A stretch of DNA of 63,952 nucleotides, the filler included, from Chrysochromulina tobinii (lineage: Eukaryota), in assembly GCA_001275005.1 (NCBI GenBank). It is 5 parts of 5 records of this genome, joined end to end, with 100 filler letters (N's around TTAATTAATTAA, not from the genome) between each part and the next. Parts side by side here need not be neighbours in the genome. Positions count along the whole stretch, not along the records: positions 14,708 to 27,053 come from JWZX01001430.1; 4 more parts are not named here. One strand, written 5' to 3'. Positions 14,608 through 61,658 of the stretch are shown one piece after another. The translations under genes and the position numbers were made by a program. Within the stretch, counting starts at the first letter, position 1. Each line of letters opens with the position of its first letter. The notes beneath the pieces are model-generated. The model saw only the letters and a program-made list of their open reading frames with translations, searched no databases and had not been told where the DNA came from.

Positions 14608-14707
14608 NNNNNNNNNNNNNNNNNNNNNNNNNNNNNNNNNNNNNNNNNNNNTTAATTAATTAANNNNNNNNNNNNNNNNNNNNNNNNNNNNNNNNNNNNN
14701 NNNNNNN
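14608..14707. other. Artificial contig linker
   Basis: 44 N + TTAATTAATTAA (stops in six frames) + 44 N. Confidence 0.98.
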
Positions 14708-15521: not shown

Positions 15522-16467
15522 GGGCGCCCACGACGGCGCCCGACGGCACTCCCGCGTGGCCTCCCCTTGTGCCACTTCGGGGCATATGCTCTCGTGGGCA
15601 ATATGGATTGCATGCGGATCAGTTACGGTACAGTGACGGATCACAGTGCTGGGATGCTCGTGAGTGTGAATGCATGCGGATCAGTGACGGATCACCAACT
15701 CGATTGTGGGATGCGACGCGCCCCCTGCCTTGCATGCAAGTGCCCACCACGGCGCTGGTTGGTCAAGTCGATGGTGGGATGCGACGGCGGCGAACATGGA
15801 CGGCGGATGGGACGCTATGATAGAATACGCTATGAATACATCTGTACTGATATGAATGATGGTGCACAATCCCGAAGTCGGAGACTGAAAACAGTCCCGA
15901 AGTCGGTGTGCGTGTCGTGTGGTCGTGTGGTCGGCCTTGTGTGCCCGGCGCGCTCCGACTGCCCACGTCGCACGTCGCACGTGTGGGCCACGGTCATGTG
16001 ATGGCGCGTGCTGTGTCGAAGTATTTCAAGAGGTGCAGGTGCCGGAACAGCTCTCAGCTTCGGATGGTGAGCCGCCCCTGCCCGCCTGCGTTTGCCGTTT
16101 CTCAAATTCCGAATGTAACAAAAAATTGGCCTTGGTGACTCGGGCGTGCGGTGCGTCTTCACTCTGCCGGAACAAGAACGAAGTAACCTACAAAGGTGAA
16201 CATAAACGCTCCGTCGGATGCGGATTGAGGGGCGACGGGCGTGTGGAGCTGGAGCCGCGACACCGCCGAGACCCAGAGCCAGTCGAGCGACGCCCAGACC
16301 CGCGGGACGGTGATTCGGACCGGGCGATTCACGCGCGTGTTCTGTCTGCCACAAGACCGCGCATGGAGCCCTCCGCGGCCTTCCACCCCTCCCTCTGAGT
16401 CTCGCTCTAATTGCCCTAATTGCCCTAATTGCCCTCTGAGTCTCGCTCTCTCTCTCTCTCTCTCTCT

Positions 16468-17844
16468 CTACCCATGGCAGCGGATGCTCTCGGCCGCATT
16501 CTTGGCGGACGACTGGCCGCCCTTTTGGAGCTTCCGTTGGTGGATCTTCTCCGCCGGCCAGAAGACCTTCGCGGGGCGCACCTGTGGGGAGAGTATTGCG
16601 CCGTGGTGAGCACTTGCATGCCGAGCCGGCCAGAAGATCTTCGCGGGGCGCACCTCTGTCACTACCTTACGCCGATAGCGCATCTGACGCTGCTGCTCCT
16701 TCTCAATCGACAAGAGAGCGGCCGCTCGCTGCGCCTCGTTGTGCGGGTACAGGCCCGTGCGGTACTGGGTGCCCACGTCGTTCGCGCCGTCCGGCGTCGT
16801 CGCCATGTTCAGCCGCGTGCTGTCCCAAATTTGGGTCGAGAGAAGAAAGAAGCTTCTCAGAGCTCAATCAGAGTAATCATAGTAATCATAGGTCAACCAA
16901 GGACAATCAAGCGCACACACCTGTCCACGGTCGAAAGAAGCTTATCGCAGAGCGCTTCGTAGCTGACCAGTTTAGGATCATAGGTGAGCATCAGAGCCTC
17001 GGTATGCCCAGTGAGGCCGGAGCTCACCTCCGCATAGCTCGGCCGCTCCGTGCGACCCTGCGTGTACCCGACGCACGTCTGGATCACCCCGGGCAGCCGT
17101 TGGAAGTGCAGCTCCGTCCCCCAGAAGCACCCGCCTGCAATTAGGGCAATTAGGGCAATTAGGGCAATTAGGGCAATTAGGGCAATTAGGGCAATTAGGG
17201 CGAGACTCAGAGGGAGGGGTCCCCCAGAAGCACCCGCCTGCAAAGGTCGCCACCTCATACTTGCCGTCGGCCGAGCGCATGGGCACCTCGCCCGCGAGCG
17301 CCCACGCAGCGGCCTGGCTCGCGAGCGAGTTGACGGCGGCGCCCTCGCTCTCGAGGCCCTCGCTGTAGTGGTCCACTTTGCCCACGCCCGCCATGCGCGC
17401 CAGCTGATAGGACATGTACGCGATGAGGACCACGCCGCCGCTGAAGGACGTGTACGGGAAATCGGACAGCGCGGCCCCGTTTGCGATCCAGCTCACGATG
17501 GCCACATTAGCCGCCAGATCCTTGAGAGTCAACCCAACGATCGCCGTATACGCGATCGCGTACAGCGACGGGAAGGGAATTTCGGCGAGCACGTTCGTCT
17601 CTCCCGCGACCGCCGCCGGCACAATGGTCGGCGGTGGCTCCTTGACCTTTTCGGCCATCCGGAGCGCGTGCGAGCGGACGGCGACCGCTGCCGGCACAAT
17701 GGTCGGCGGTGGCTCCTTGACCTTTTCGGCCATCCGGAGCGCGTGCGAGCGGACGGCCGTGGGTCGCACGCGCGCATGTACGTTTGGCGCGAAGCTTGCG
17801 CTCGCAGCGTGCAGCACACTCAGCAACGAGAAGACAAAACGCAT
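16468..17844 (-). CDS. msrA: Plastid-targeted peptide methionine sulfoxide reductase A (366 aa); exons 17844-17238, 17134-16921, 16819-16654, 16581-16468
   Basis: Spliced product has ATFAGGCFWGTE, VGYTQG, GLTGHTEA, NDVGTQYRTG, FWPAEKIHQ, CHG*. N-terminal ASASFAP motif. Intron phases are consistent; the first intron is GC-AG. Confidence 0.92.
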
Positions 17845-18356: not shown

Positions 18357-21300
18357 CTACAACAGGAAGCGGTCGTCGAGCAGCGTCTTGGCAGCGATGT
18401 TGCGCGACGCCAGCTCGGAGCGCACGGCGCGTAGCACAAAGTCGAAGATGTACGCGAAGAAGATGGCGATGTACGTATTCTGGGTCGCCATGTCGAAGAG
18501 GCAGTACGTGAGCACCATGAACATGACGACGTCGTACTCACGCCCCGCGAGCAGCAGGCGCTTGAACCGCCCCTCGGTGTCTTCGAGGAAGATGGAGCGC
18601 TCGCCGTACCCCTGATGAGGGAGGCAATCAGCATGAGGAGGGAGGCTCTCAGCATGAGGGAAGCAATCAGCATGGTTTCGGTGTCCACTCAGTGATCACT
18701 CAGTGGCGATCAGAGGTAATAGGAGGCCATCAGAAGTAATAGGAGGCCATCGGAGGTAATAGGAGGCCATCAGAGGTAATAGGAGGCCATCAGAGGTAAT
18801 AGGAGGCCATCGGAGGTAATAGGAGGCCATCAGAGGTAATAGGAGGCCATCAGAGGTAATAGGAGGCCATCAGAGGTAATAGGAGGCCATCAGAGGTAAT
18901 AGGAGGCCATCAGAAGTAATAGGAGGCCATCAGAGGTAATAGGAGGCCATCAGAGGCAATAGGAGGCCATCAGAGGTAATAGGAGGCCATCGGAGGTAAT
19001 AGGAGGTCATCAGAGGTAATAGGAGGCCATCAGAGGTAATAGGAGGTCATCGGAGGTTATTCGTGTGCGGGGGGCTCGTCGGGTTTCGTCGCACCATATC
19101 GGGCGGTAGGCCGTACTGCTCGTTGCCTATTTTGGCACGCACGATCGGCTTCTCCGCAGGCGCGCCGCCCGCCGCCCGCTCATCGAGGTTGCTTGCCGCC
19201 TGCGGCGACGGCGTCGCGAGATACCCCATCAGGTACCTGTGGGGAAGGGAGGGCGCCGTGGTGAACACATGCATGCACGGCGTCGCGAGCTACCCCATCA
19301 GGTACCAGAGCAATCAGGGTTCGTCAGGGCTCATCGGGTTCGTCAGGGTTCGTCAGGGTTCGTCAGGGCGAGCACCGATTGGCTCCCGCTGGCGCTTGAG
19401 TCAATCAGTCTCAGGTTCGTCGGGGTTCGTCAGGGTTCGTCAGGGCGAGCACCGATTGAGCTCCCGCTGGCGCTTGAGTCCTTCGTCAGGCGCGGCGCGA
19501 AACCCCTTGGTGCGCACACTGACGGGACCCCGGGTCGTACGCACGTTCCGACGGCCGGGCGGCGGTCGGCGCGTCGGCTCCGCGTAGAGGACGCCCGCGA
19601 AGGCCGCGTCGTACTTTTCGCGCATCCGGCGCGAGAGGTAGATCTCGTACCTGTGGGGAAGGGGAGGGCGCCGTGGTGAGCACATGCATGCAAGGCGGTA
19701 CTTTTCGCGCAGCCGGTGCGCGAGAGGTAGAATCTCATCTCGTATGTACGTTTGTACGTTCGAGTCCGGTGTGAAGCCGCGCGTCGTGACGAGGCTCTCG
19801 GCCTGTGGGGAAAGCGAGGGCGCCGGGGTGAGCACATGCATGCAAGGCGGAGGAGGGCTTCCATTCGAAGAGCGCTGTGGTGAGCGCCTCGAGCTTGAGG
19901 TTGGCGTTGAGGTGCGCCATGTCGGCGATCAACAGCAATCAGCAGCAATCAGTAGCAATCAGCCGCACTCACCTCGAGCTTGAGGTTGGCGTTGAGCTGC
20001 GCCATGTCGGCGTCCGCGTGATCGTGCGCCGAGCGCCCGTGCAGATAGAAGCCGAAGTGCTTCTCCTCGAGCAGGATGCAGCTGATGTTGGTCACCTGAT
20101 GAGGGGCGCAATCATTCGCAATCTGTGAGGCAATGAGTGGCAATCCCCTCGAGCACGATGCAGCTGATGATGGTCACCGCGAGCAGATCGACAAACTTCC
20201 CACAGGGCTCGTCAGGGTTCGTCAGGGTTCGTCAGGGTTCGTCAGGGCTCGTCAGGGCTCGTCAGGGCACGTCAGGGCTCTCACCGCGAGCAGATCGACG
20301 AACTGCCACACCCTGTCCTTGATGCGACGCTGCCAGAAGGCCCACATGAACAGGTACTGGGAGAGGGAGGCTGCGAGGAGGAGGCCGGTCGAGAGGGCGA
20401 AGCGCAAGAGCATGTGCTCGGGCGTCGAGGCGTCGCCGTTGCCTTTCGGGACGAGGCGGATGGCGTCCACTAGCCCCAACCCCTCCTGCGCATGGCGATC
20501 CGAGGTGATCCGAGGCGATCAGAAGCGATCAGAAGCGATCAGAGGTCCTCAGAGGCCCTCAGAGGTAATAAGAGGCGATAAGAGGCGATCTGAGGCAATC
20601 CGAGGCGATCTGAGTCAATCAGAGTCAATCCGCGGCGATCCGCGGCGATCCGAGGCAATCACGTACCTGGACGAAGAGGAGGACGAGGAGGCTGAGCTCG
20701 CTCGAGATCGTGCGAGCATCCTGTGGGGAGAGGGGGGGAGGCGCCGTGGTGAGCACTTGCATGCGCCTCGGGAGAGAGCCTCAGTGACGATCCGACTGAC
20801 CTGCAGCTTGACCCACTCGTTGGCGACGAAGATCGTGCGCCACACGGAGACGGGCGTGCTGCCGCCACCTGCGTGGGGCGGGGGGGAGCGCCGTGGTGAG
20901 CACGTGCATGCACGGAGACGGACGAGATGCTGCTGTTACCGATCTTTTCGCCCGCGTCCTCCTCATCTTTGGCCCCGACGCCGGCGGAGCGCGGCTGCCG
21001 AACACGAGGAGGACAGAGGGGGTCAGTGGCTGATGAGGGAAGCCATCAGTGGCTGATGAGGGAGGAAATCAGAAGGTGCTCACCTGCTCCCAATCAGGGG
21101 CAATCAAGCGTAATCCAGCATAATCAAAAGGTCCTCACCTGCTCCCAATCAGGGGCAATCAAGCGTAATCCAACGTCATCCAAAGTGGCTCACCTGCTCC
21201 CAATCGATGAAGAAGAGGTCGTGCTGCGTCTGCACGAGGAGCAGGTCGATCATTTGGAGGCACTGGGCGATGAAGAGGATGATGATGAAGACCTGGAAGG

Positions 21301-24300
21301 GCATCCACGGGCCGACCATGTACATGCTGTCGAGCGGGCGGGCGACGGGCATGAAGAAGAAGAGTTCGTTCTGAGCTTTGTAGAGGATCATCCACCACGT
21401 ACAGATGAAGTACAAGAGGAAGAAGAAGACGGTGGCGAAAGCACCCGCAACCTGGAAGACCACATCAGGAAGACCACGCGGTGACACGTTGCCATATTAG
21501 GCGACGAGCCGTCAGGAGCAATTAGGGCAGCGCAATCAGCGCAATCAAGCGCCGTCCTGGGCACCTGGCAGAGGACGCGGTGGTAGTCGCCGAAGTTGCC
21601 CGAGGTGCGCTGCACAAGCACGTACACGTAGATGGCCGAGAGGATGAGGCAGAGCACGATGGCGATGATGAAGAGCATATTGATCGTCTGGTCCGAAGGT
21701 TGCCATATTAGGCAATTAATGTGTGTCAGAGAGAGCCAATCATGGGCACCATCAATGGTAATCAAGGGCAATCAGCGCACCTGGCCCGAGTTCTCGAACT
21801 CAAGGGTAATCAAAGGTAATCAAGGGCAATCAGCGCACTTGGTCCGAGTTCTCGAACTCAAGGGTAATCAAAGGTAATCAAGGGCAATCAGCGCACCTGG
21901 TCCGAGTTCTCGAACTCCATCGTGTATGTCATCCGGAAGAGTGCCGGAGCAATCACGCCAGATCGCTCGAGCTCAGCCTCAAACTCGAGGGGTGACGTGG
22001 CGGCGGCGGGCTTGATGATGTCCGCGTACTCGATCTCGAGCTGGGGAGGTAGCATCTGCCGAGGGAGGTGATCAGAGGCAATCAAGGGAGCTTCGATCTC
22101 GAGCTGGGGAGGAAGCATCTGCCGAGGGAGGTGATCAGAGGTCATCGTAGGCTATCAGAGGCAATCAAGGGAGCTGGGGAGGAAGCATCTGCCGAGGGAG
22201 GCGATCAGAGGTCATCGTAGGCTATCAGAGGCAATCAAGGGAGCTGAGGAGGAAGCATCTGCCGAGGGAGGCGATCAGAGGTCATCGTAGGCTATCAGAG
22301 GCAATCAAGGGAGCTGAGGAGGAAGCATCTGCCGAGGAGGTGATCAGAGAGGCCATCAGCAGCACTCACCTGTGAAGGTGTCCCGTCGTTGCTCTTGACG
22401 ATGATTGTGAGCTTTGCCGAGCGTAGGTAACGCACCTGATGAGGGAGGCAATCCGAGGCTCATTAGTGCTCATCAGAGGAGCTGCCGCCGAGCGTAGGTG
22501 ACGCACCGCCTCGGGAAGCTTGCCCGAGGCTCATTAGTGCTCATCAATGCTCATTAGTGCTCATCAGTGCTCATCAGGTACGCACCGCCTCGGGAAGCTT
22601 GCCCGAGCTCGCACCGCCGCCGCCAGCTGAGACGCCCGAGACGGCGTCGAGCACGTAGAAGCGGCGCGTGAGCTGATCGTCAGTCGTGAGTCCCCCCGGC
22701 TTGTTGACGACCTGTGCGTTGCGCTTGTAGTTGGTCACCCGCACCGGGATCGGGTAGAGGAAGCATGAGCCGCTCGACGCGGCGGAGGTGGTCGAACCAG
22801 GGGGAGGGGGCGACGTGGCGGAGGTGGTTGACGCGCCGCCCTGAGCACAAGCTCGCCCGAGCTCCTCGATGGGTGTGAGCGAGTGCTCCCCGGTTTCGTC
22901 ATAGTAGAGGTACCTGATGAGGGGAGGCAATCAGTGGCTGATGAGGGAGGCAATCCGCGACCCTCAGTGGCCATCAAGATGCCCTCGATTTCGCACACAG
23001 GTGCCATCAAGAGGCGATCAAGAGGGTCATCAGGCACGTACATGTCGTACAGCACCACGTCGGTTCGCTGCGAGAGGAGCCTCAAGGCGGGCACCTGTGG
23101 GGAGAGGACGCCGTGGTGAGCACTTGCATGCTGGGGTGGTATCGTCGTCGGTTCACGAGAGGCGCGCAAGGCGAGCTCAAGGCGAGCTCAAGGCGAGCTC
23201 GCACGCACCTCGCACGCGAGCTCCAAATCGGTACCGACATTGAGGAAGGCGGACGGGTCCGATGCACCGCCAGGGCAGAGCTGAAGCTGATCGGAGAGCT
23301 CCTGCGAGATGATGAGGGAGGCAATCAGGGAGGTAATCAGGGAGGTAATCAGGGAGGTCATCAGAGCTGAAGCTGATCGGAGAGCTCCTGCGAGATGATG
23401 AGGGAGGCAATCAGGGAGGTAATCCTCCTGCGAGATGATGGATGAGGGAGGCAATCAGAGGCTCCAGCAGGCCGAAATACAGGCCGAAATACAGGCCGAG
23501 ATACAGGCCGAGATACAGGCCGAGATACAGGCCGAGATACAGGCCGAGAAACGTGCCCTTCCAGCACTCGACGCGCAATCGATGCGCAATATTTGCGCAA
23601 TATTTGCGCAATCAATGCGTACTCTAGGCGCACTCAAGGCGCACTCAAGGCGCACTCGAGGCGTACCTGCAGGCCGAGGTACGTGCCGTTCAGGCTGTAG
23701 GCTGCCAGCAGAAAGCGCAGCCTCGAGCCGGCCGCCATAGGCAGCGCGAGTGTGAACGGGATGGACGGTGCTGCGCGCGTGATCGCTTGGTCGCCCCGAT
23801 CGTAAAAGAGGCCGGGGAGAAACCGCACCTGTGGGGAGAGAAGGGCGCCGTGGTGAGCACATGCATGCTTGGTCGCCCCGATCGTAGAAGAGGCCGGGGA
23901 GAAACCGCACCTGTGGGGAGAGAAGGGCGCCGTGGTGAGCACATGCATGCTTGGTCGCCCCGATCGTAAAAGAGGCCGGGGAGAAACCGCACCTGCATGC
24001 CAGTGGGGAGGGCCATGAGCATGAGCGCGATCTTAGTAAGGAAGGGCACTTGGGCATGCATGCAATCACGCACCCATTCTTCGTTGCTGTCGACCGAGTT
24101 GAGCGCGTTCGAGGCCTTCAGATACTCGAACGCCTTGCATGCATCATTGTCTTCATCGTAGTTGGCGAGCACGCACCTGTGGGGAGAGCAGGGCGCCGTG
24201 GTGAGCACTTGCATGCATAATTGTCTTCATCGTAGTTGGCGAGCACGCACAGGTTGCCGACGGCCTGGCATGCCCGGGTGCCCGCGAGGAGCGTCTGTCG

Positions 24301-25092
24301 GTTCGGCTCCGGCGCGGCGATCGCACGCCGGCACGCGGCAAAATTGGGCTCGAAGAGTTGCATGATGGCTATCGAATCCGTCACGCTCTCAGAGAGGCTG
24401 GCTCCTTGTCCAGGGAGGATGGCGTCGAAATCCTTCTTGAAGTCGAGGCGGATGCTGTCCGGCCGCGTGCTGCCTTCGGGCTGGTACACGCACGACTCGT
24501 CACGCCCCCAGAGCCCGCCGGTGTGAAGCCGGTTTGTGAAGGCCGGCGACGGGCACGCGCACACGTAGCCTGACGTGGCAGTCGCCTGCATGAGCGCATC
24601 GGAGCAGTCGACGCAGACGCCATTGGAGGGCTGCTGGCCAGTGGGACAACGCCGGCACTCAAAGCTCGGCAGCAGTGCGCCGTTCTCGTCGCGTTCCACG
24701 AGCACTTGGCCCGATCCGGCCGGGCACCCGCACGTTCTGCGCACGAATCCGGGCACGATCTGGCTTGTGTAGATCGTCGAAGTGCCGTTGCACAAGAGGC
24801 AGCTCCGACCATCGCGCGTCGCGGCTTGGTTTGCCGGGCATGCGTTGCACGAACCCGTCGTCGTGTCACCGTCCGAGAGCGCCCTGCTCCCCGAGCACTG
24901 GCATGAAGTGCCGAGCGAGTCGGGCGCGGTATTCGTAGGGCAATCGTAGCAGCGGAGCGTGGAGACGTCGAGATACTGGTTCGGGCCCGTGCATGCCGGG
25001 TAGGAGAAGGCGTCGTACTGGCCGCGAGCCGCAGGCGGCAGCGCGACGAGAAGCAGCAGGCGCAAGTCGAGAGCCTTCATGAGTTCCTTCAT
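18357..25092 (-). CDS. TMEM67: Meckelin (TMEM67/MKS3), ciliary transition-zone protein; 19 exons, 1111 aa
   Basis: Cys-rich N-terminus, ACQAVGNLCVL, HDLFFIDWE, VSVWRTIFVANEWVKLQ, QFVDLLAVTNIS, GFYLHGRSAH, RNIAAKTLLDDRFLL*. One continuous frame results from removing introns 24177-24250, 23829-24073, 23302-23666, 23095-23208, 22914-23041, 22436-22585, 22056-22369, 21688-21896, 21452-21564, 20995-21193, 20869-20939, 20721-20800, 20486-20666, 20096-20284, 19803-19972, 19651-19749, 19237-19452, 18612-19094. Confidence 0.93.
18709..19060. repeat. Intronic 20-bp minisatellite (AGGAGGCCATCAGAGGTAAT), ~17 copies
   Basis: Directly visible tandem array inside the last meckelin intron. Confidence 0.95.
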
Positions 25093-27053: not shown

Positions 27054-27153
27054 NNNNNNNNNNNNNNNNNNNNNNNNNNNNNNNNNNNNNNNNNNNNTTA
27101 ATTAATTAANNNNNNNNNNNNNNNNNNNNNNNNNNNNNNNNNNNNNNNNNNNN
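27054..27153. other. Artificial contig linker
   Basis: 44 N + TTAATTAATTAA + 44 N. Confidence 0.98.
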
Positions 27154-27580: not shown

Positions 27581-28762
27581 TTAGTACCCGGGGACGCGGA
27601 TTTCGTCGGGGCTCATGTCGAGAATGCGCAGCCCGCGCCTGTCGGCCACCGCCTGCGCCGAAGAGCAGCGCTGGAGGGCATTGACTAGGGCGTACGCGAC
27701 GGTCGTCGGGTTGCGAGATCCGTGAATCTTAACGGAGACGTCCGAGATCCCAAAGGCGCTCAGCAGCTTCCACACGACCCAGCTGCATCGCGTGCCGCTG
27801 CCCGGGCGGCGCAGCCTCATCACGAGCTTCGTGCGCGCGAACCGCTCGTCGAAGGCATGGAACATAGTGCGCTGATCGAAGCGCTCGATGTGCACGAGGT
27901 TCTTGCGAGCGGCGACTGTCGCCTTGTACAGGGCGTTGCCCGCGACAACGTCCTTGCCCATCCCGATGCCCGCGGTCCCCTGCCCGTTGCCCACCACCAC
28001 CAGCGTCGAGTACGAGCCGCGCTTCGTCTCCGACATCGATTTGGAGACTCGCCGGTTGTTGAGCATGTACCCGAAATACTGTCCATCGGGCAGCCCACCG
28101 GACTCACGGAGCTTGAGAGAGTCGTGGAAGGAGCGCGCGATTTGGAGGTTGCGCGCGAGGTCCTCCTTGAACAGCTCCTCCGAGTTCAGCCCCTCGGCGA
28201 AGTCTTCGAGCGGGGGCATCGACGGCGGCGGCAGCAGACCCTCAGGCCCAAGGTCCTCGAGCAACTCAAGCAGCTCCGCGCGCCGCGCCGGCTCGACATC
28301 CGGCTGCGCGAGGAGCGCGGCGCGGGCGCGCTTGGCCCGCTCAGCACCCGAGCGGCTGCCCGATTCGGGCACCGCCGAGCCCGTGCGCAGCGCCGTCTCG
28401 CCGTCAAGCCAGAGGTACTCGTCGCCGTCGCCCTCGGCGAGGGTGAGCGCGTCGTCGGCGAGGAAGTACTCGTCGTCGTCGAGGTCGACTCCGCGCACCT
28501 CGGACTTCGCCTTCATGCCCTTCTGCTTGGAGCCCATGCCTATCCTAATACTGTCCTTTTTTCTGTCCTGGTCAAAGCCGACGTCCTGCCAAAACTCCTG
28601 CTGCGAGAGTCCGCCCCACTTGGCCCAGAAGTTGCGCTTGCGCCGCTTGCCCTCGGGCGTCTCGCTCGGTGGCACGTAGCAAAGCGTCCGCGCGCGCGGC
28701 GCGGCGACGCAGCGCAGCGCCGGAGGCGTCGCGCGCAGGGAGCCGAGTAAGCTCCTTCGCAT
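27581..28762 (-). CDS. MRPS5: Organellar (probably mitochondrial) ribosomal protein uS5
   Basis: YSTLVVVGNGQGTAGIGMGK, ARKNLVHIERFDQRTMFH, AFGISDVSVKIHGSRNP; Arg-rich presequence-like N-terminus MRRSLLGSLRATPPALR. Confidence 0.85.
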   Translation of the reverse strand: MRRSLLGSLRATPPALRCVAAPRARTLCYVPPSETPEGKRRKRNFWAKWGGLSQQEFWQDVGFDQDRKKDSIRIGMGSKQKGMKAKSEVRGVDLDDDEYFLADDALTLAEGDGDEYLWLDGETALRTGSAVPESGSRSGAERAKRARAALLAQPDVEPARRAELLELLEDLGPEGLLPPPSMPPLEDFAEGLNSEELFKEDLARNLQIARSFHDSLKLRESGGLPDGQYFGYMLNNRRVSKSMSETKRGSYSTLVVVGNGQGTAGIGMGKDVVAGNALYKATVAARKNLVHIERFDQRTMFHAFDERFARTKLVMRLRRPGSGTRCSWVVWKLLSAFGISDVSVKIHGSRNPTTVAYALVNALQRCSSAQAVADRRGLRILDMSPDEIRVPGY

Positions 28763-30369: not shown

Positions 30370-31603
30370 CCAGCTCCAGCGCCACCAGCAACAGCAGCGG
30401 CCAGAGGAGCGACGCTTATGCGGCGGCCAACGGCTCGGCCGACGGCCTACGGCTCGGCACACGTACATGTAACGCTCTGCTCGCGGCGCTCGTCGCCTCG
30501 GGAGAGGTGAGCTCGGCGACCCATGTGCTGCTGAGCGACGTGATTGCCTCTGATGACCTCGAATGACCTCTGATGGCCTCCCTCATCAGGTGAGCTCGGC
30601 GACCCATGTGCTGCGCGCCATGGAGGAGGGTGCCGCGCACCCGCCGAATGCGTACTCGTACTGCATCATGATGAGCGCGTATGGCGCGCGCAACCAGCTC
30701 GGGAACGCCGAACGCTTGTGGAAGCTGCTCTGGCAGCAGGGGTGGGTGGACACCGTCGTTCTCAACTGTTGGCTCCAGGCGTGCATTACCAACGGCGAGG
30801 TACAGCGTGCGCTCCTCGCGCCGAGCCTCTGGGCATCTGCATGCACGTGCTCACGATGGCGCTCGCTCCCCTCTCCCCGCAGGTGCCGCGTGCGCTCCAG
30901 GCGTTCCAAACGGCCAAAAAGGAACTTCCCAGCCTGCAGCTGGACAAGGTGACCTTCGGGACCCTCATCAACGGCCAACTGAGCGACGTGATTGCCTCTA
31001 ATGACCTCTGATGCCCCCCCTCATCAGGTGACCTTCGGGACCCTCATCAACGGCCTCACCCGACCCTACGGCGCGAACAACAATGTGGCGAGCGCGCGAC
31101 GCGCCCTCCAGCTCTGGGCCGAGATGCGCCTGCTCGGACTCGCGCCCGACGCGCGGATCGTCACGCCGCTCTTCGACGCATGCACCCGGCACGTGGGTGT
31201 CGAGACAGTGCTCAAGCTGCGCGTCGAGCTCGTGCGCATGGGCTGGAATGTCGCCGCACTCCGCCCCCACGACCAGGTGCTCATCGCCGCGCTACCTTCA
31301 CTCAAAGAGGTGCTTCGCGATCAGCCCAAGTGGGAGGCTCTCGGCGTGCGTCTCCCTCCCACGCTGGGCTCCGAACAGGCGCAGCTCAGCCTCACCATGC
31401 CCGCGCTCCCGACCGCCGTCGTCCCTCCCGCGGCGACGTCGGTCCCACGGGCCGGCCGTGCGGAGTTTGAGCACGACGACGGCACGGAGGTGCCGTGCGT
31501 CGTTGAGGATGACGAGTGCGCCGCGCAACCCGCGAGCGCAGGCGAGGAGATCTGGGAGCGCCATGCGTGGAATAGCATGGACGGCTCCTGGAGGTACATA
31601 TAA
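28947..31603 (+). CDS. Pentatricopeptide repeat (PPR) protein with signal peptide, 803 aa; introns 30507-30589, 30800-30882, 30949-31027
   Basis: PPR motifs TFCILIKGYGRAG, TLNALLDAYARNG, TYNTLIKGYS, PNEVTYSTLIHAC, VTFGTLINGL; removing the three phase-0 introns restores the frame. Confidence 0.9.
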
Positions 31604-32284: not shown

Positions 32285-35200
32285 ATGGCCACCACCAAGA
32301 CCGAAGAAGGCGTCCACGTGCTGGGTTCGGGCAATACCTTTGAGCGCCCGTTGACGGTCAACGAGCCTTGTGCCTTCTCCTTTGCCTTCTCTGTGGACGG
32401 CAACCTACCGCTCGAGTTCTCGGTGATGCTCCGCGCCAAGGGCAAGGACATGCAGCTGCTGCCAGCAAGTAGATATGCGGAGCTCGACGGAGAGGTGCTT
32501 CTTCCGGGTGCCGGCACGTGCATCGCACGGTGGCACAACCCGTCCGGCTGGGTGTTTAATGCGCCGGCGGCCACGCTGTACTTCAAGCTGCAGGTGCTCA
32601 AGCAGACCCCGATGCCCGCACTCAAGAGCCCGGCCGCCGCGCCGGCGCCCCCTGCGCCCGCCGAGCCGGCCAGCGCCGAGCCGGTCGAGCCGCCGAGCCC
32701 GGAGCCCCCCTCGAGCGCCATGCTCGCCGCCATCGACGCGGCCGTCGAGGTGGCCAAGGCGAAGGCCGCCGGGGCAGCTAATGCCGCGGCGGCTGAGGCT
32801 GGGGCGGCCGAAGCGGTGAGGGCGAAGGCCGCCGCGGCGGCGCAAGCTGAGGAGGCCGCTGCCGCGGCGGCGCAAGCTGAGGAGGCCGCTGCCGCGGCTG
32901 CGGAGCAGGCAGCCGCGGCGGAGGCTGCCAAGGCGGAGGCGGAGGCGGAGGCGGCGGCCATGGAGGCTGCGAAGGCGGAAATGGAAGCGCAGGCGGCGGA
33001 GGCGGCGGCCGCGGCGAGCGCCGCCCTGAGCGCCGCCATCGAGGCAGCCATCGAGGCAGAGGCGGCGGAGAACCCCGGGGAAGCGCCCCCACCGTGGGTT
33101 CCGTCAACTTCGTCGGTTGCATCATGGGTGACCCACGAAGGGCTGCTTCAGAAGCGCACGAGCGCGAGCGTGCCGGCCGGGGGCATACACGAGGTGTGAA
33201 GTGAAGCATGGGCTGTGAAGCGCACACAGTTGCTCCGCCTGATCGAGCTCTGATGTGCTCTGAGTGCGACTGATGGCCGCTGAGTACATCGTAATTGTGG
33301 CTCCGCCCCTGAGCTCAAGCTGTGATGACCCCTAATGACCTCTGATGACCCTAATGACCTCTGATGACCCCCGATGACCCCTGATGACCTCGAACCGCCT
33401 CCAATGACCCCTGATGACCTCTGATGACCCCTGATGGCCTCCGATGGCCTCTGATGGCCCCTGATGACCTCAAACCGTCTCCAATGGCCTCAGGTGAAGC
33501 TGACTGTGCCGAGTGGCGGCGCCCTCCTGCTCACCACGGCGCCCGCTCCCTTCCCCACAGGTGAAGCTGACTGTGCCCAGTGGCGGCGCCCTCTTCCTCT
33601 CGTGCACGCTCGGACCGAACAAGCCGGCGTCCTTCTCCGCGTACATGGCCCCGCTCACGACGGCGCTCCACGAGCCGCCCGCGACGGCGCGTGGGGAGAC
33701 GTACGCGGTGGTGCGCGCGGCGCCGTCGGAGATTGACAAGCTCATTGGGTACCCTCTGCCAGCGGCCGCCGAGCATGCTCTCTCTGCGAGGCACGCGAAC
33801 GCGACGCTCCTCGGCAAGGCGGCGAGAGACGCTGCGATCGAGCTGGAGTGGGCCTACGAAGTGAATACCAACGGCCAGCGGGCCTTCACAGAGGCCATCG
33901 AGCTGACCGATACGGCGCTCGTGCGCCTCGAGATCGACGGTGCGTGCGAGCTGACGCTGTCTTGGGAACATGTGTCCACGACGTGGATCTTTCGCGATAG
34001 TGAGACGCCGTTGGCGTGGAGCGCGACGCTGCTGCGCCTCGTGCCTGACATGGGCGCTGAGCTGGGCGCCGGCGGCACACCCACCGCCCCCTCAGCCACC
34101 ACCACCACCTCCTCCTCCTCCTCCTCCTCCTCCTCCTCCTCCTCGCCGCCACCGCCGCCGCTTCCGCAACCCGCGTCGCCAACAACGTTGTCACCGCAGC
34201 CGCCGCTGCCTCCACAACTAGCCACCGGCACCACCGGCGTCACACGCCCACACTGGTCGCCGCACCGGTCGTCGCCGCTCGCCCGTCCCGCCCAATACGA
34301 CGCGCCCGATACGGCGCGCGAGCTCGCGAGCTCGCCGTCGGCGTCCACGCCGCCCGCCAACCCGGCGCCTGCTCAACACGACGCGCTCGATCAGGCACCC
34401 ACGCCGCCGTCGGCGAGCTCGCCGCCGCCGCCGCCGCCCACGACGGCGGGCGCCCAATACGACGCCCTCATGCAAAAGGCGATGGACGAAGCTCTCGCTA
34501 AGGCTCTAGCAGGCGCGACTTTGACGAAGCCGGCGTTCGTCAACGTCGCGCCTGTGCTGGCGGAGGCGCCCGCCTCGGCGCCCGCCTCGGCCGCTCATCA
34601 CGGCGCCACGGCGCCCATCACGCCCGCCCATCACGCCGCCCACCACGCCCTCACGTGCCGCCCCTGCGCCCGACACGGCGCCATCTCCAGGAACGGTTAC
34701 CTCCGTCGAGAGGACCACCGGCGCCGTGGCGGGCGCATCCGTCGAGGATAGGGGCGCTTCCCTCGTCGCCTCTCTGAGGGTCGATGCCGAGTCTGCTGTA
34801 GCTGACGACGGCGAGGGCGAGGCGCCCCGCACCGGCTTTCGAACGCGGATGCCGCCGCCCTCGCCCTCGCCCTCGAACGAGAATGTCCGTGACATGCCCT
34901 CCAGTTTGCGCCTGCCTTTGGCGCAGGAGGACGAGGACGAGGACGAGGACGAGGAGGACGACGACGAGGACGAGGAGGACGACGAGGATCTTTCGCAGAT
35001 CACCCGCCACCCCTCCCTCGGCGCCGACGGCGGCGACGGCAGCCTGCGCTACTCGACGTCTGCCGAGTGGGCATTGATTGAGCAAGGGAAGCTGAATGGG
35101 GTGCCCGCCACGACGCTCGACGCTCGAGAGCCCACCGAGGCGCCCAACACGACGCGGTCGCTGCCCGGCCCGGCGCCCCCCCCTGACCCTGAGGAGGAGG

Positions 35201-38911: not shown

Positions 38912-39011
38912 NNNNNNNNNNNNNNNNNNNNNNNNNNNNNNNNNNNNNNNNNNNNTTAATTAATTAANNNNNNNNNNNNNNNNNNNNNNNNNNNNNNNNN
39001 NNNNNNNNNNN
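38912..39011. other. Artificial contig linker
   Basis: 44 N + TTAATTAATTAA + 44 N. Confidence 0.98.
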
Positions 39012-46224: not shown

Positions 46225-49200
46225 ATGGCGTCAGCCACGGCGGCTTCGGCTGCTGGTCCTGTGACATCAGCAGCTGCTGCTGCACTGCTCAGCAATGATG
46301 GCCCGGCCTGGCAGGCGGCCGCTGCCGTGCTCATCGGCCAAGTGCTCACGGGCGACCCTCGGTACAAGTCGGTGGCCGCGATTGGCGATATCCGGCGTGC
46401 GGCAGCCTCGAGCGCAACAGCCCGCAGTTTGCTTGTCGGCAGCACTGCGTTAGTGACGGGTCTCGCTGGTGTGCTGCGGCCGCTTACCGATCGGTCATGC
46501 TACCAGCTGAGCCATCAGCTGCCATCAGCTGAGACCATGGCTGCCGCCGAGGTTGCTGAAGCTGTCGTGTGGCTCTTTGGCTGGCTGCTGCCCGTTCCGC
46601 AGAACGCGGCGGTGCTGCACGTGCGCGGCGACGCCGCGCTGCTGCTACGGATGTCGCGCCAGGGCGCCACTCGCGGGCTGCGCCATGCGGCCCTCGTCGC
46701 GTACACGATCCTTCACGTCGCCGACGGCTCGGCGACGGACGTCGCCTCAGCCATCGAGGCTCTCATCGCGTCGACGAGAGAGGGCATCGCGCTCGTGAGG
46801 GCGCGCGTGGCGGGCGCCGACACAAATGATGCGTCGTGGCGTGTTGTCAGCTGCCTGAGCGCCTTGTGGCACCTGCTCGGAGGTCGGAGCATGCCCCATC
46901 CCGACGGCATCAGGCGGGATGTGAGCGCGCCTAGTTCGGTGTTGGCGATTTCGTCACTCCGGCGCGCGGCGCGCGAGGCCTTTGAGCGGGCCGATGGGCT
47001 GCTGCGCCTCAAGGAGCTCATCGGTGCGCTCGACGCCGCATTCATTGGCGACGCCATCGATGCGTCTTCCGCTTCCCCATCCGCCGCGCAGGCCACCGCG
47101 CAGGCCGCGGCGCATTCACAAGCGCATTCACAAGCGCATTCACAAGCGCAGGCACAAGCGCAGGCACAAGCGCAGGCACAAGCGCAGGCACAAGCGCAGG
47201 CGGAGGCGCTCTGGCTCTTGCGTGCGGCGCTGCGAGTGCTCGGCGCGTCGGTGCGCTCGGAGCCCGAGCTGGCAGCGCGCTCGTGGGCGTTCTTGGGCGG
47301 CACCGAGGGGGTCGTCGCCCTCTTGGGCGGCTGCGGCTTGCTGCACAGTGGGCACGCGATCTCCGTGCTCGAGGAGATCCTCGAGCTCACCTCGGGATCG
47401 GAGGCGCAGCTCTGGGCAGCGGCGGCGGTTGTGCTGCGCCTGCTGCCGCGGCTGCTTCGTGACGTGGCGGCGGCAGCCTCACTCCTCGAGGCAGTCGAAC
47501 GACGAGCGCTGAGCAGCGAGGCTACTGCGGTGCAGCTCTCCCGCGCTGGCTTGCTCTGCGCGGCCGTCCACCTCCTACGTCAGTTGTGGAAGGGCATCGA
47601 TGCGTCGTCTTGGGCGGATCGCGTGCACGATGCAGCAGCGGACGACGAGTCGGCTGCCAACGAGGAGCCGCGCCCGAGTGCAGCCGTGCCCGAGCACGTC
47701 GCGGCCGGTGCAGCGTCGCGTCCAGTTTCGTCAGCTTCGGCGGGCTCGCCACTGCTGCGCACGCTGCTGCGCTTGACGGTGCGCCTGGCGCGTGCGTGGA
47801 GCTCGCCGCAGGAGGTGCGGCTGCTGCTGCAGGCGGCGGCGGGCGCCGACGACGTCGCAGCTGGGGCTGACGGAGCGGCCAGCCCGTCGTCAGTGCGCTG
47901 GCTCGCCCTGCTCGTCGCGGCGACCCGTCCCGTAGGCCCATCCCTCCCCTACATGCACCTCTCGCCGCCCGACGAGAGGGCTTCCAAACATGGATTGGTG
48001 GCCGAGACGGCGCTCCTGAAGGTGGGGATGCTCGAGCGTGCGTGGCCACCCGCGGCGGGCTATAGCGCGGGCGCGTGGGTGCGTCGGCCCCCGCTCCCAT
48101 CCGGCGCTCAAGGTGGCGCTCAAGGTGGCGGCTCGTATGTGGACGAGCCGCCTTTTGCGCTCTTCGCGTTTGAGACGGCCGATGGGAGGAGCCGTGTCGT
48201 CTGTGAACTACATGCTGCGGCAGGTGGGAGTGCAAGCCTGACGCTGGTGACGGGCTCGAGCGCGAAGACGATGCGTAAGGGCGTCGCGCTGCCGTTGGTG
48301 CCCGGCAACTGGCATCACGTGTGCCTCGTGCATGAGCGGCGTCGACCTCTCAACGCGTCCCCGCTCGTTGTCTACGTCGACGGCGTCGCGCACTTCCGCG
48401 GTACCTTTCAGTTCCCTCCGTTTGACTGCTGCCACTCCGTCGACGCCAAGGTGGGCTATGTCAACGCGGATGAGCTCGGCGGCGGCGGCGGCGGCGGCGG
48501 CGACGGCGAGGGCGGCGGCGAGGGCGGCGGCGAGGGCGGCGGCGGCGGTGAGGGGGGCAGAGGCGGCGCACGCGCCCTGGGATGGCACCTCGGCCCCCTC
48601 TTCGTCGCGGAGGTGTTGCTGAGCGACGCGCAGGTGCGTGAGGCGTGTGCGATGGGGTGCTCGCCGCCCTGGGTGCTTCCACAGCTCGGTGAAACGCAGA
48701 TCGACGAGCTGCGAGTCGAGATCATGACGTGCTGGTTGCAGTCGGCGATGGCCACGTCAGCGGCGGCCATCGAAGCGGCCGTGAGCTCGAGTGGTGGCGG
48801 CACAGTAGAGAGCCACGAGCTTCGGATTCCGCCCGCCAAGATCCTGATGCTGCTCAACGGCCACTTTGACGAAACGCCATTTGACCAGAGGGAGCCGGCG
48901 CGCGTGCGCCCGCGCAGCCTGCCGCAGTCCCTCGCGGCGGCGGGTGGCCCCGCAGCGCTCTTGATGGTGGTCCGCCACGCCAACGACACACGGAGTCTGG
49001 TGCTCGCCCTGCGTCTCGTGGGCCACTTCCTCACGCTGCATCCGCTCAACGTGCGCGCGCCTGATGACGGACGAGCATGTTCTGATGATGACCTCTGACG
49101 ACCTCTGATATGACGCCCTTGATTGCCTCCCTCATCAGTTGCGCCTGATGACGGACGAGCATGCGGACTTTGGGTTGCGCTTCCTCTTACGCGCCAAAGC

Positions 49201-52200
49201 GCAGCCCTTGCTCGCCGAGGCGCTCTGCGACGCGTTGCTCGAGCTCTGCTGCAAGCAGCACCCACGCACCGCCGCGGCCGCGCGCGCGTTTGACGAAGCC
49301 CTTGAGGGCCTTGCGGCGTCCGCGGGCGCGCTGGCTGACGAAACGGACGAGCTCGCTGAGCACCTGCTCGCCGTGCACATCTCGCCCACATCTCGCGAGC
49401 ATCAGCCGGTACTCGCCAACCGCTCACTGCTCAAGGTGCAGCCGCTCGATAGCGCGCTCTGATGACCTCTGATGACCTCCGATGACGCCATGGATTGCCT
49501 CCCTCATCAGGTGCTGCTGCTCGATAGCGCGCTCTGGGCGCGCGCGACGCCCAAGGCGCAGCGCCACTGGCTGCAGCGGCTGCATGGGCTGCTGTCGGAG
49601 GACGAGGTGGGCACCTCCAATGCCAGCTACCTTGTGGATGCCGGCATGCTCGACAGCATGATGACGCTGCTGGCTTCGGGTCGGCTGCTCGCGGGTGGAT
49701 GCCATCTGCTGGCTGCGCGGCTCGTGCTGCGTACGTGGCACTCAGTCCAGTTCTCGATGGAGGTGACGCGGCGAGTGCATGACTTCCTCGCGGCCACCGC
49801 CCGCCCGCAGCATGCGGACGTGCAGCTGCTCTGCGTGCGCATGCTCGCGCGCATGGTGGAGCACGCGAGCACTTCGCTCGGGGAGGTGGTTTCGTCACGC
49901 GCCGCCGCGAGCGCTGCCACGCGCGCCGTGGTGGCCACGCCGGCGGCAGCCGGCGAGCCGGCGCCGCCGGCCGAGTCTGCGGGCGTACACGCGGGCGCGA
50001 GGGCGGTGCTGGCGGTACTCCAGCCGCCGCTGCTCCTCTCGTTTCTGCAGCCCGAGCACGGCGGACACAACAAGGTTCTCGTCGCGGCGGTCATGCGCTT
50101 GATCGTCAATCTGCTGCTGCTCTCGCAACGGTACCCGGAGCATGTCACCTTTGCGAAGCAGATGGGCGAGTCCCGAGGGTTTGAGAAGCTCTTCGGCGTT
50201 CTCCCGTTGCATGCGGGGGTACCGGACGTGTACCTATCCCTCCTCGCGCTCGCCACCAGCCAGACGCTCGACACGGTGGAGAACAAGGCGCCGCCAGAGA
50301 CGGCGGAGCAGCTGGCCGAGGCCTGTGCGCTGCTCCAGCTCACCTGATGACCTCTGATGACCTCGGATGGCCTCTGATGACCTCAGATGACCTCAGATGA
50401 CCTCTGATGACATCTGATGGCCTCTGATGGCCTCTGATGGCCTCTGATGACATCTGATGGCCTCTGATGGCCTCTGATGACCTCTGATGACCTCTGATGA
50501 CATCTGATGGCCTCTGATGGCCTCTGATGACCTCTGATGACCTCTGATGGCCTCCCTCATCAGGTGCGCTGCTCCTCGCCACGCCCTCCGCCTCGCCCTC
50601 GACGCCCCGACGCCCCAGCATCTCGTCGCCGCTCGGCACGGCGCTCGGCTTGCCCCAGGGCGCTCTCGCGCGCGCCGCCGCCGAGGCAGCGGCGCGGCTG
50701 CAGCAGCGTGCGAGCGGCAGCAGCAGCAGCAGCAGCGGCGCAGCCAGTGGCACGCCAAGCGCTCGGGACGTCGCCGAGGATGGCGCGGCTCCGGCGATTG
50801 AGTGGATCCCGATCAGCCTCGGATTGATAGCCGTCATGTGCCGTGAAGCCCTTCGCACCAAGCGCGCCCCTCCGAGCACGAGCGCCGCATCGAGCGGCTC
50901 GACGAGGGACGAGGGCGCCGTACCGAGCGCCGCCGACGGCTTTGAACTCGTGGGTGCCGAGGCGACGTCCACGGAGCTCACCGTGAGCAGCAGCAGCAGC
51001 AGCAGCAGCAGCCGCGAGGGTGAGGCAGCTGGCACACCAACGGTCGACCGCGCCGTCCCGGTCGACCGCGGCGGCGGCGGCGGCGGCGGCAGCAGCAGCG
51101 GCAGCACGGCCGCTGGGGTGTCGAGCGCACACATGGAACGCGAGCAGGCGGCGGCGAGCGCGTTGCATCTCTTTGTGGCGGTGCTGCCCTCGCTCCGAAC
51201 ACTCGTGATGACCTCTGATGACTCCTGATGACCTCTAATGACGCCCTTGATTGCCTCCCTCATCAGGTGTTGCCCTCGCTCCGAACACTCGTGATGACGG
51301 CGTCCATCTTCGAAGGGGTTCTCCTATCTCCCGCCTCCGAGCTCCTAGGCCGCCTGTGTGCCTCGCTCGGTGCTGTGTGGCTGAGCACCTCCGCCTCGGG
51401 CGCCGCCGCCTCGTACGCTGTCACCGCCGTTCCCTCGTCCGCGCATTCGGGCAGCGCGCGCGCGCTGCCGAGCGCCGTGCCGAGCGCCACGACCGCCCCG
51501 ACCGACCAAGGTGGCAGCGCCGTACTGGGCAGCTCGACACCGCGCCCATCGACGGACGTGGTCAAGGCAACGGTCGAAGGGGACGCGGCGCTGGATGCCC
51601 TCGTGGAGATGCTCAGTACGGCGCTGCTCGATGTGCCGTCGACGCTCGTCTCAAGCGCCGGCCAGACGAGCCTCGATCTGCTCATGGATCCGCTCCCCTC
51701 CCTCGCTCATTCACGGATCGCCTTTGACGTGTGGCTGCGCTTCCGCTGTCTGCTGATTCGAAAGCTCTTCAGTGCGCTGCACCAGGGGCTGATGAGTCGT
51801 TCGGGACCCTTGACGGAGGCGCATGCAAAGGCGCTTGCGCTCCTCTACCGGCGTGTCCTCCGGTTGCAAGCGATCGTGATCCACCCCGTGGACGCGGCGA
51901 CGCCATCTCCCTCGAGCTCCTCGATATCTTCTTCGATCTCATCGAGCACCCCCGACGCTGCCACGTCGAGCACAAGAGACGTCACGTCCCCGGCTGGCTC
52001 TGCTGACGCGCCGCCTCCACCGCCACCAGTGCCCCCAGCACACTCAGCACCCCCGCCGCCCCTGCCGCCTCCACCGACGGCGCCACGGGCACCGCAGGCC
52101 CCAGATCAGGCCTCAGAACAGGCCACTGATCTGCTGCCGCACGCGGAGATGCTCGCCGTCGTCCTCATCCTGCTCGAGCGCGGTGTGGGCGATGAGCGGC

Positions 52201-61558: not shown

Positions 61559-61658
61559 NNNNNNNNNNNNNNNNNNNNNNNNNNNNNNNNNNNNNNNNNN
61601 NNTTAATTAATTAANNNNNNNNNNNNNNNNNNNNNNNNNNNNNNNNNNNNNNNNNNNN
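61559..61658. other. Artificial contig linker
   Basis: 44 N + TTAATTAATTAA + 44 N. Confidence 0.98.

What the first reader, a model, noticed from the sequence alone, without database searches (positions are those of the whole stretch)
20096..22585. Introns containing a copy of their own spliced exon-exon junction
Seen: inside intron 22436-22585, bases 22479-22528 read (sense) CTCGGGCAAGCTTCCCGAGGCG|GTGCGTCACCTACGCTCGGC, the upstream exon end joined directly to the downstream exon start. Inside intron 20096-20284, bases 20147-20204 likewise read ...GTCGATCTGCTCGCG|GTGACCATCATCAGCTGCATCGTGCTCGAGG. Each copy has repeat cassettes on both sides. Inference: the intronless state is fossilised within the intron, either copied from spliced mRNA/cDNA or an intronless allele, or left by two successive insert-and-duplicate events at one site. 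Either way it indicates these positions were once intron-free or were repaired from an intron-free template.
Basis: partly seen in the sequence, partly recalled or inferred. Interest (0 to 1): 0.8.

Follow-up and report, generated by a model that had tools for sequence, protein, structure and literature searches.

The report
Old splice sites buried inside introns
Two introns of a freshwater alga's meckelin gene each contain a 42-51-base near-copy of the spliced exon-exon junction; this is most likely the intron's original start, buried when the same spot was duplicated twice in an organism whose new introns appear to arise by copying flanking exon sequence, not a copy made from mRNA.

Summary
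Real and not an artefact. Introns 6 (22585-22436) and 14 (20284-20096) of a Chrysochromulina-group meckelin (TMEM67) gene hold junction copies (41/42 and 48/51 identical; 2 of 18 introns, control 0 of 306). Four RNA runs remove both introns whole; another assembly and three diverged alleles keep the nested form. Most introns here carry half of such a copy: either the downstream-exon start at the donor followed by a shared acceptor cassette (67-86 nt unit), or the upstream-exon end plus donor repeated. Both halves vary between alleles, and one cassette intron is absent from an allele. The embedded junctions lie 71 and 82 nt from the acceptor, where the donor of a plain cassette intron would be, and two double hits are what independence predicts (1.3-2.0). 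Best reading (0.8): duplicate-and-insert intron gain, then a second duplication of the donor region; no cDNA needed. Mismatches in the copies are later decay. The scan already noted the cassette family in this genome (e1-2577349). The copying enzyme and template are unknown.

The parts
18357..25092 (-). Host gene: meckelin/TMEM67, 19 exons, 18 introns, 1111 codons plus stop
   Evidence: Pfam PF09773 on 4 of 5 exon peptides; open frame; 6 of 6 RNA-contig length checks fit; joints; spliced database protein P0003 matches exons 15-19
22436..22585 (-). Intron 6 (150 nt, GT-AG, phase 0), nested form; two-unit tandem of 79 + 71 nt bounded by the 5-mer CTCGG
22529..22585 (-). Intron 6 outer part: donor in use (first 6 nt equal the downstream-exon start) plus 10-mer repeats that occur nowhere else in the window but in this intron's own 3' cassette
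22507..22528 (-). Copy of upstream-exon end (22/22)
22487..22506 (-). Copy of downstream-exon start (19/20); begins with GT, inferred former donor, 71 nt from the acceptor
22436..22486 (-). Acceptor cassette, family B (ends in the 18-mer found 15 times in the window)
20096..20284 (-). Intron 14 (189 nt, GT-AG, phase 0), nested form; 198-238 nt in three other alleles, 82 nt in L013
20198..20284 (-). Intron 14 outer part: donor in use (GTGAG; first 4 nt equal the downstream-exon start) plus 10-mer repeats shared in the window only with intron 17
20178..20197 (-). Copy of upstream-exon end (19/20 here; 20/20 in L006, L010, L014)
20147..20177 (-). Copy of downstream-exon start (29/31); begins with GT, inferred former donor, 82 nt from the acceptor
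20096..20146 (-). Acceptor cassette, family B
24177..24250 (-). Intron 1: plain first-step form (43-nt copy of the downstream-exon start + 31-nt family A cassette, 74 nt)
19237..19452 (-). Intron 17: second-step duplication (upstream-exon end + own donor) present in the window strain, absent in L006, L010, L013
16582..16653 (-). Plain first-step intron candidate in the neighbouring msrA gene (29-nt copy + family A cassette); present in window, L006-L009, absent in L010
   Evidence: not RNA-confirmed
17135..17237 (-). GC-AG intron candidate in msrA with a 19-nt copy of the downstream-exon start; present in window strain, absent in L006 and L010
   Evidence: not RNA-confirmed

Best explanation
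The embedded junction is likely the intron's original 5' splice site, left inside the intron by two successive local duplications at one site. Step 1 (layout shown, event inferred): a 30-60-nt acceptor-carrying cassette shared across the genome is inserted into an exon together with a 12-44-nt duplication of the target; the GT at the start of the first copy serves as donor, so the new intron starts with a copy of the downstream exon and its donor reads like the spliced junction. Step 2 (layout and allelic variation shown, order inferred): the upstream-exon end plus donor is duplicated again with filler repeats; the outer donor is used (shown by RNA contigs) and the old one is stranded inside. 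In intron 6 step 2 looks like a plain tandem duplication between two CTCGG microhomologies, followed by a small deletion and repeat growth in the outer unit; in intron 14 the filler resembles intron 17, 830 nt away. The copies then decay neutrally. The likeliest chemistry for both steps is microhomology-guided templated synthesis at staggered breaks or stalled forks (inferred; enzyme and template not tested). The copy has no function that I can show; use of the inner donor would shift the frame (+79, +107 nt).
For: (a) Half-copies are the rule: upstream-exon copy score 12 or more in 7 of 18 introns (null 1 of 272), downstream-exon copy in 8 of 18 (null 0 of 272); at cassette acceptors window-wide 13 of 26 score 20 or more, null 0 of 508 (sites not all independent, the two targets included). 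(b) Inner GT to acceptor is 71 and 82 nt; plain units listed are 67, 69, 72, 74, 75, 79, 82, 82, 83, 86 nt (two longer: 99, 239; list picked by hand). (c) Where an intron does not start with a downstream-exon copy, the upstream-exon copy is followed by the intron's own start (intron 8: 53 and 24 nt vs 0 to the exon; intron 10: 5 and 6 vs 0; intron 17). (d) Overlap of the two classes expected 1.3-2.0 of 18, observed 2, P 0.41-0.69 (classes set by hand). (e) Both steps vary between alleles: step-1 intron 16653-16582 absent in L010 (its longest exact repeat is 17 nt, read from the sequence), step-2 copy in intron 17 absent in 3 of 3 diverged alleles, intron 10 has 2 or 3 copies. (f) Intron 6 filler motif occurs 4 times in the window, all within intron 6. 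(g) A mirror-image case (acceptor region duplicated) exists in L006 and L010 and not in the window. (h) Copy mismatches differ among alleles and change residues invariant or nearly so in homologues: Y to H, N to I or T, L to V.
Against: No allele with a demonstrably ancestral one-step form of intron 6 or 14 was found. L013 has the predicted 82-nt form but differs from nested L010 at only 1 of 729 columns (others 12-21), so it is more likely a deletion between 24-nt repeats or an assembly collapse than a survivor. No diverged allele covers intron 6. The age order (downstream copy older) is not significant: 3/53 vs 0/42 mismatches, P 0.25. Filler of intron 14 is not a copy of its own 3' cassette, so step 2 there is not a simple tandem duplication. 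An upstream-first order cannot be excluded on splicing grounds alone (cryptic AGs 3 and 18 nt inside the upstream copies would keep the frame; read from the sequence). Gain versus loss in msrA has no close outgroup. Counts rest on 18 introns of one gene and 26 sites in one window.
Confidence: 0.8

Rival explanations
1. One complex repair event on an intron-free allele: a break at the future junction is repaired by iterative template switching (cassette, then junction region from the sister chromatid or homologue, then cassette), giving the nested intron in one go.
For: Same end product; templated insertions with several switches are known for polymerase theta and MMBIR (search listing and abstracts only). 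The intron 14 filler is foreign to its own cassette. Age difference between the two half-copies is not significant.
Against: Both single steps are common and vary between alleles on their own, and their expected overlap already equals the observed number. Intron 6 reads as a clean two-unit tandem of an existing intron.
Confidence: 0.12
2. The copy was written from spliced mRNA or cDNA (or from a co-existing intronless allele) into a pre-existing intron during break repair.
For: The copy is collinear with the mRNA across the junction; the gene is transcribed.
Against: Does not predict that the intron's first 4-6 nt equal the downstream-exon start, that the inner GT lies one standard unit from the acceptor, or that upstream-exon copies in other introns run into intron sequence rather than the next exon. 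No intronless allele of intron 14 among the 4 diverged alleles that cover it. Copy mismatches are not exon states of any allele seen.
Confidence: 0.06
3. Assembly artefact (haplotype mis-merge) or a functional microexon.
For: Repeat-rich introns differ in length between assemblies of the same strain (intron 7: 314 vs 846; intron 18: 483 vs 623). Contigs drop rare splice variants.
Against: Identical in L009 and L011, present with private SNPs in L006, L010, L014; unbroken unitigs over the copies; whole-intron joints in 4 of 4 RNA runs, which may be one campaign; copies carry substitutions at invariant residues.
Confidence: 0.02

Closest known systems
Introners that carry the 3' splice site and take the donor from the target duplication (Symbiodinium; Polarella classes 4, 5, 6, 8, 10; bioRxiv 10.1101/2020.10.14.339549, parts 1-2 of 4 read; PMC9860276, passages and supplement look-ups)
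   Same: Shared sequence among introns at unrelated loci; acceptor carried, donor co-opted from the duplicated target; strong phase-0 bias (13 of 18).
   Different: Published duplications are short (3-9 bp; 3, 4, 5 or 8 nt per class); here 12-44 nt and variable, often with 1-2 mismatches; only the 3' 30-60 nt are shared, with ragged 5' ends; no terminal inverted repeat. The marine Chrysochromulina example in PMC9860276 has a 4-bp duplication and carries the 5' site. C. tobinii is in that paper's genome list but the name occurs nowhere else in the stored (cut) supplement.
Amphioxus 'mirages' (PMC3087553, passages)
   Same: Tandem duplication of an exon/intron boundary, at 5' or 3' side, copy number differing between haplotypes, regular splicing undisturbed: this is step 2 (introns 6, 8, 10, 17; acceptor side in introns 2, 3, 7).
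   Different: There the duplicated boundary is exon plus ordinary intron; here it falls on an intron that starts with a copy of the next exon, which yields the look of a spliced junction.
Break-repair neointrons of Daphnia pulex (PMC4202315, passages)
   Same: Direct repeat of exon sequence at the far end of a new intron; presence/absence in populations; further internal repeats from later events in young introns (55 of 90).
   Different: Repeats there are 4-12 bp and no genome-wide acceptor cassette is described in the passages seen.
Intron gain by tandem genomic duplication of an AGGT-bearing segment (PMC3443670, passages)
   Same: Duplicated exon segment supplies the donor and leaves the coding sequence intact.
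   Different: The acceptor here comes from an added cassette, not from the duplicated segment.

Membership tests
Introner (TSD type) | Related sequence in introns at unrelated loci | tested here: met
   Family A 24-mer 12 hits, family B 18-mer 15 hits, chance 0.00-0.01, on several contigs of the window; only the 3' part is shared
Introner (TSD type) | One splice site carried, the other co-opted from the target duplication | tested here: met
Introner (TSD type) | Short target duplication of fixed length per family (3-9 nt) | tested here: not met
   12-44 nt, variable within a cassette family
Introner (TSD type) | Terminal inverted repeats (present in many, not all families) | tested here: not met
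   longest terminal inverted match 1-4 nt in 10 of 11 cassettes, 7 nt in one
Introner (TSD type) | Recent activity (presence/absence between alleles) | tested here: met
   msrA 16653-16582 absent in L010; 17237-17135 absent in L006 and L010; polarity not fixed, introns not RNA-confirmed
Introner (TSD type) | Mobilised by a transposase or retroelement of the genome | not testable with these tools
   no genome held
Mirage (exon/intron boundary tandem duplication) | Head-to-tail copies of an exon/intron boundary | tested here: met
   introns 6, 8, 10, 17 at the donor; 2, 3, 7 at the acceptor
Mirage (exon/intron boundary tandem duplication) | Copy number varies between haplotypes; normal splicing persists | tested here: met
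Tandem genomic duplication (AGGT) intron gain | Both splice sites come from the duplicated exon segment | tested here: not met
   upstream exons of introns 6 and 14 end in GCG; the acceptor lies in the cassette
RNA/cDNA-templated insertion | Copy crosses a junction that the DNA cannot explain (a second, neighbouring junction) | tested here: inconclusive
   copies (up to 44 nt) are shorter than the shortest exon (53 nt), so no second junction can be crossed in this gene
Microexon | Segment included in mRNA | tested here: not met
   whole-intron joints in 4 of 4 RNA runs; contigs hide rare forms

The most novel reading that the evidence does not exclude
Self-propagating intron ends: with no dedicated transposon, the 3' ends of existing introns (as excised RNA or as DNA) are the templates copied into staggered breaks, giving fixed AG ends, ragged 5' ends with occasional microhomology and 12-44-nt duplications; every new intron becomes a further template, the process is still running in natural populations of a cultured alga, and repeated hits on one site leave dated layers such as these buried junctions.
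Probability: 0.25. Interest if true: 0.82.

Novelty: new variant of a known kind. Interest (0 to 1): 0.5.

Why it matters
The buried junction by itself is a by-product, and a warning: a spliced-looking junction inside an intron is not proof of RNA-templated repair. What it exposes matters more: an intron-gain process with long, variable duplications and a shared acceptor cassette, with intron-bearing and intron-free alleles side by side in the Chrysochromulina parva/tobinii group. Known introners have short duplications; break-repair introns lack a shared cassette. If confirmed genome-wide, the source of new introns (transposon, DNA repair or intron RNA) could be tested directly by population sequencing and mutation accumulation in culture.

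Tried and rejected
No whole genome is held, so counts are window-only. Protein search with exon 10 found nothing. Cassette scans of viral contigs gave 1 locus with the match at its end and 0, genome contigs 0: no extra sequence for statistics. The first read-laying at 90% likeness was swamped by cassette matches from other loci; only its piece table was used. L013 was first taken as the ancestral intermediate and then rejected as such. L001-L005 are uninterrupted over the junctions but may be transcripts, so they were not used as intron-free evidence. Mismatch-based dating of the two half-copies is not significant. My first exon models had boundary slips (one base at exon 2, so the phases printed there after intron 1 are wrong; corrected); the start given for the 17237 intron was wrong (corrected). 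Replitrons were looked at as a mover with variable duplications (PMC10288648, passages): no direct terminal repeat test was run, left as a lead. PMC12130899 (passages) does not contain the words Chrysochromulina or haptophyte in its main text. Literature searches found no description of this cassette family or of nested junction copies in haptophytes; subscription papers, the C. parva and C. tobinii nuclear genome papers and the supplements of the bioRxiv preprint were not seen, and the PMC9860276 supplement is cut (two cassette motifs 0 hits).
Full report
1. Observation. The two introns lie on the minus strand of a meckelin (TMEM67) gene, 25092-18357, with 19 exons (Pfam PF09773 on 4 of 5 exon peptides; open frame of 1111 codons). 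The organism belongs to the Chrysochromulina parva/tobinii group: a gene on the next contig of the window is 392/393 identical to a named C. parva protein, and both contigs share the intron cassettes. Intron 6 (22585-22436) holds 22/22 nt of the upstream-exon end joined to 19/20 nt of the downstream-exon start; intron 14 (20284-20096) holds 19/20 and 29/31. Matches that span the intron's own junction by 10 nt or more on each side occur in 2 of 18 introns, against 0 of 306 pairings with other junctions and 1 of 612 half-own pairings.

2. Not a microexon, not a mis-merge. RNA contigs of 4 of 4 runs join across both introns whole (skips of 150 and 189 nt, GT..AG), and no joint from the inner GT is listed (the runs may be one campaign and contigs drop rare forms). 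Six of six length checks fit the exon model. One unitig covers all of intron 6 without a difference (record 3) and a DNA unitig covers the copy in intron 14 (record 20). Of 14 loci from one metagenome scan, L009 covers both introns and L011 intron 14, identical to the window although L009 differs in repeat lengths elsewhere; L006, L010 and L014 are diverged alleles (12-21 differences in 729 columns) that keep nested intron 14 with other repeat counts.

3. Half-copies are the rule. A copy of the upstream exon scores 12 or more in 7 of 18 introns (null 1 of 272) and of the downstream exon in 8 of 18 (null 0 of 272). Over the window, 13 of 26 cassette acceptors have a downstream-exon copy scoring 20 or more upstream (null 0 of 508; some sites share an intron). 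The commonest layout is: GT-starting copy of the downstream exon (12-44 nt, 0-2 mismatches), then a 31-58-nt cassette ending in AG. Two cassette families recur (12 and 15 hits, chance about 0). They have no terminal inverted repeats. The copy's end overlaps the cassette's start in some cases (9 nt in intron 1, 7 nt at 51181, 5 nt at 49436) and not in others; this was read and not tested against a null. In such an intron the donor itself reads as the spliced junction. The second layout repeats the upstream-exon end together with the donor (introns 8, 10, 17; intron 15 uninformative); there the copy runs into the intron's own start and not into the next exon.

4. Nesting. The inner GT of introns 6 and 14 lies 71 and 82 nt from the acceptor, within the 67-86 nt of ten plain units (two others 99 and 239; hand-picked list). 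The outer donors repeat the first 6 and 4 nt of the downstream exon. Intron 6 is a two-unit tandem (79 + 71 nt) bounded by CTCGG, and its filler motif occurs in the window only inside this intron. The filler of intron 14 is shared only with intron 17. With 4-6 introns in the first class and 6-7 in the second, 1.3-2.0 double hits are expected and 2 are seen (hand-set classes, small numbers).

5. Both steps vary between alleles. In the neighbouring msrA gene the plain cassette intron 16653-16582 is present in the window and L006-L009 and absent in L010; the 17237-17135 intron is absent in L006 and L010. The donor duplication in intron 17 is absent from L006, L010 and L013. L006 and L010 carry a mirror-image buried junction in another msrA intron that the window lacks. 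These msrA introns are not RNA-confirmed and their polarity lacks a close outgroup. A genomic homologue at 36% identity (L012, with an intron of its own) is uninterrupted at all of the first 14 positions, including those of introns 6 and 14, which fits lineage-specific gain but could be loss there. L013 shows the predicted 82-nt one-step form of intron 14, but it is 1 of 729 columns from nested L010, so I count it as a likely reversion or collapse, not as the ancestor.

6. Mismatches. They differ among alleles (the Phe codon change and the last G are private to the window strain; the Asn codon reads Thr or Ile in the copy) and alter residues conserved in 12 homologues (Y, N, L). They are decay of the copy, not an older exon state. 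The downstream copies are not significantly more decayed than the upstream ones (P 0.25).

7. Mechanism. Shown: layouts, splicing of the outer donor, allelic variation of each layer. Inferred: order of events, and microhomology-guided templated synthesis at breaks or forks as the chemistry. Untested: enzyme, and whether the cassette template is DNA or excised intron RNA. I put 0.8 on two successive events, 0.12 on one multi-switch repair event on an intron-free allele, 0.06 on an mRNA, cDNA or allelic template, 0.02 on artefact or microexon.

8. Known systems. Step 1 works like introners that carry the acceptor and co-opt the donor (bioRxiv 10.1101/2020.10.14.339549, parts 1-2 read; PMC9860276, passages) but fails the short fixed duplication, so I do not file it as a member of those families. 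It also resembles Daphnia break-repair introns (4-12-bp repeats; PMC4202315, passages) and AGGT tandem duplication (PMC3443670, passages), differing in repeat length and in the shared cassette. Step 2 meets the description of amphioxus mirages (PMC3087553, passages; the lead came from earlier scan notes). C. tobinii was in the genome list of PMC9860276 but its name appears only there in the stored, cut supplement, whereas many marine Chrysochromulina bins are listed with introners. Nine literature searches found no account of this family or of the nested copies (listed under Tried and rejected); coverage is incomplete. The scan noted the same footprint on another piece of this genome (e1-2577349); that is a lead, not independent support.

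9. Verdict. Observation confirmed; interpretation partly supported (two-event option). New variant of a known kind, interest 0.5: the buried junction is a predictable by-product, while the underlying polymorphic intron-gain process deserves a genome-wide look.

Noticed in passing
L006 3841-3989 and the same intron in L010; window 16920-16820 (-): Mirror-image buried junction: in L006 and L010 this msrA intron candidate holds an upstream-exon copy ending in AG followed by about 11 nt of the downstream exon, then a second acceptor region; the window strain has the single form.
   Followed up: partly
window 17237-17135 and 16653-16582 (-): Two msrA intron candidates with presence/absence between alleles; the first has a GC donor and an exact 25-nt flanking repeat, so collapse in the alleles is not excluded.
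   Followed up: partly
window 17757-17625 (-): Tandem duplication (period about 75 nt) over the msrA start region; the 58-nt probe occurs twice in window, L007, L009 and once in L006, L010.
   Followed up: partly
window 23666-23302 and 23208-23095 (-): Introns 3 and 4 hold short, decayed junction-like matches (scores 12 and 11), possibly older cases of the same nesting.
   Followed up: no
window 21896-21688 and 21564-21452 (-): Introns 8 and 9 are the mirror class: they end in a copy of the upstream-exon end that supplies the AG (9 and 4 nt exact), after a shared motif with a CTAAT branch-like site.
   Followed up: no
window 22369-22056 and 19094-18612 (-): Repeat arrays are longer in assembly L009 (846 vs 314; 623 vs 483 nt), so the window may collapse repeats; intron 18 is only 158-178 nt in L006 and L010.
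   Followed up: no
window 14608-14707, 27054-27153, 38912-39011, 61559-61658: Four linkers of 44 N, a 12-base spacer (seen at two of them as a stop-codon linker) and 44 N: the window is five contigs joined.
   Followed up: yes
window 30507-31027, 33494-33560, 49054-51266 (+): Seven more cassette intron candidates with 12-33-nt copies of the downstream-exon start on other contigs; not RNA-confirmed, host genes not identified by a call.
   Followed up: partly
window 27581-28762 (-): Intronless ribosomal protein S5-like gene, 392/393 identical to a Chrysochromulina parva protein; used to place the organism.
   Followed up: yes
window 15732-15755 (+): A family A cassette match apparently outside any gene, next to a short local repeat.
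   Followed up: no
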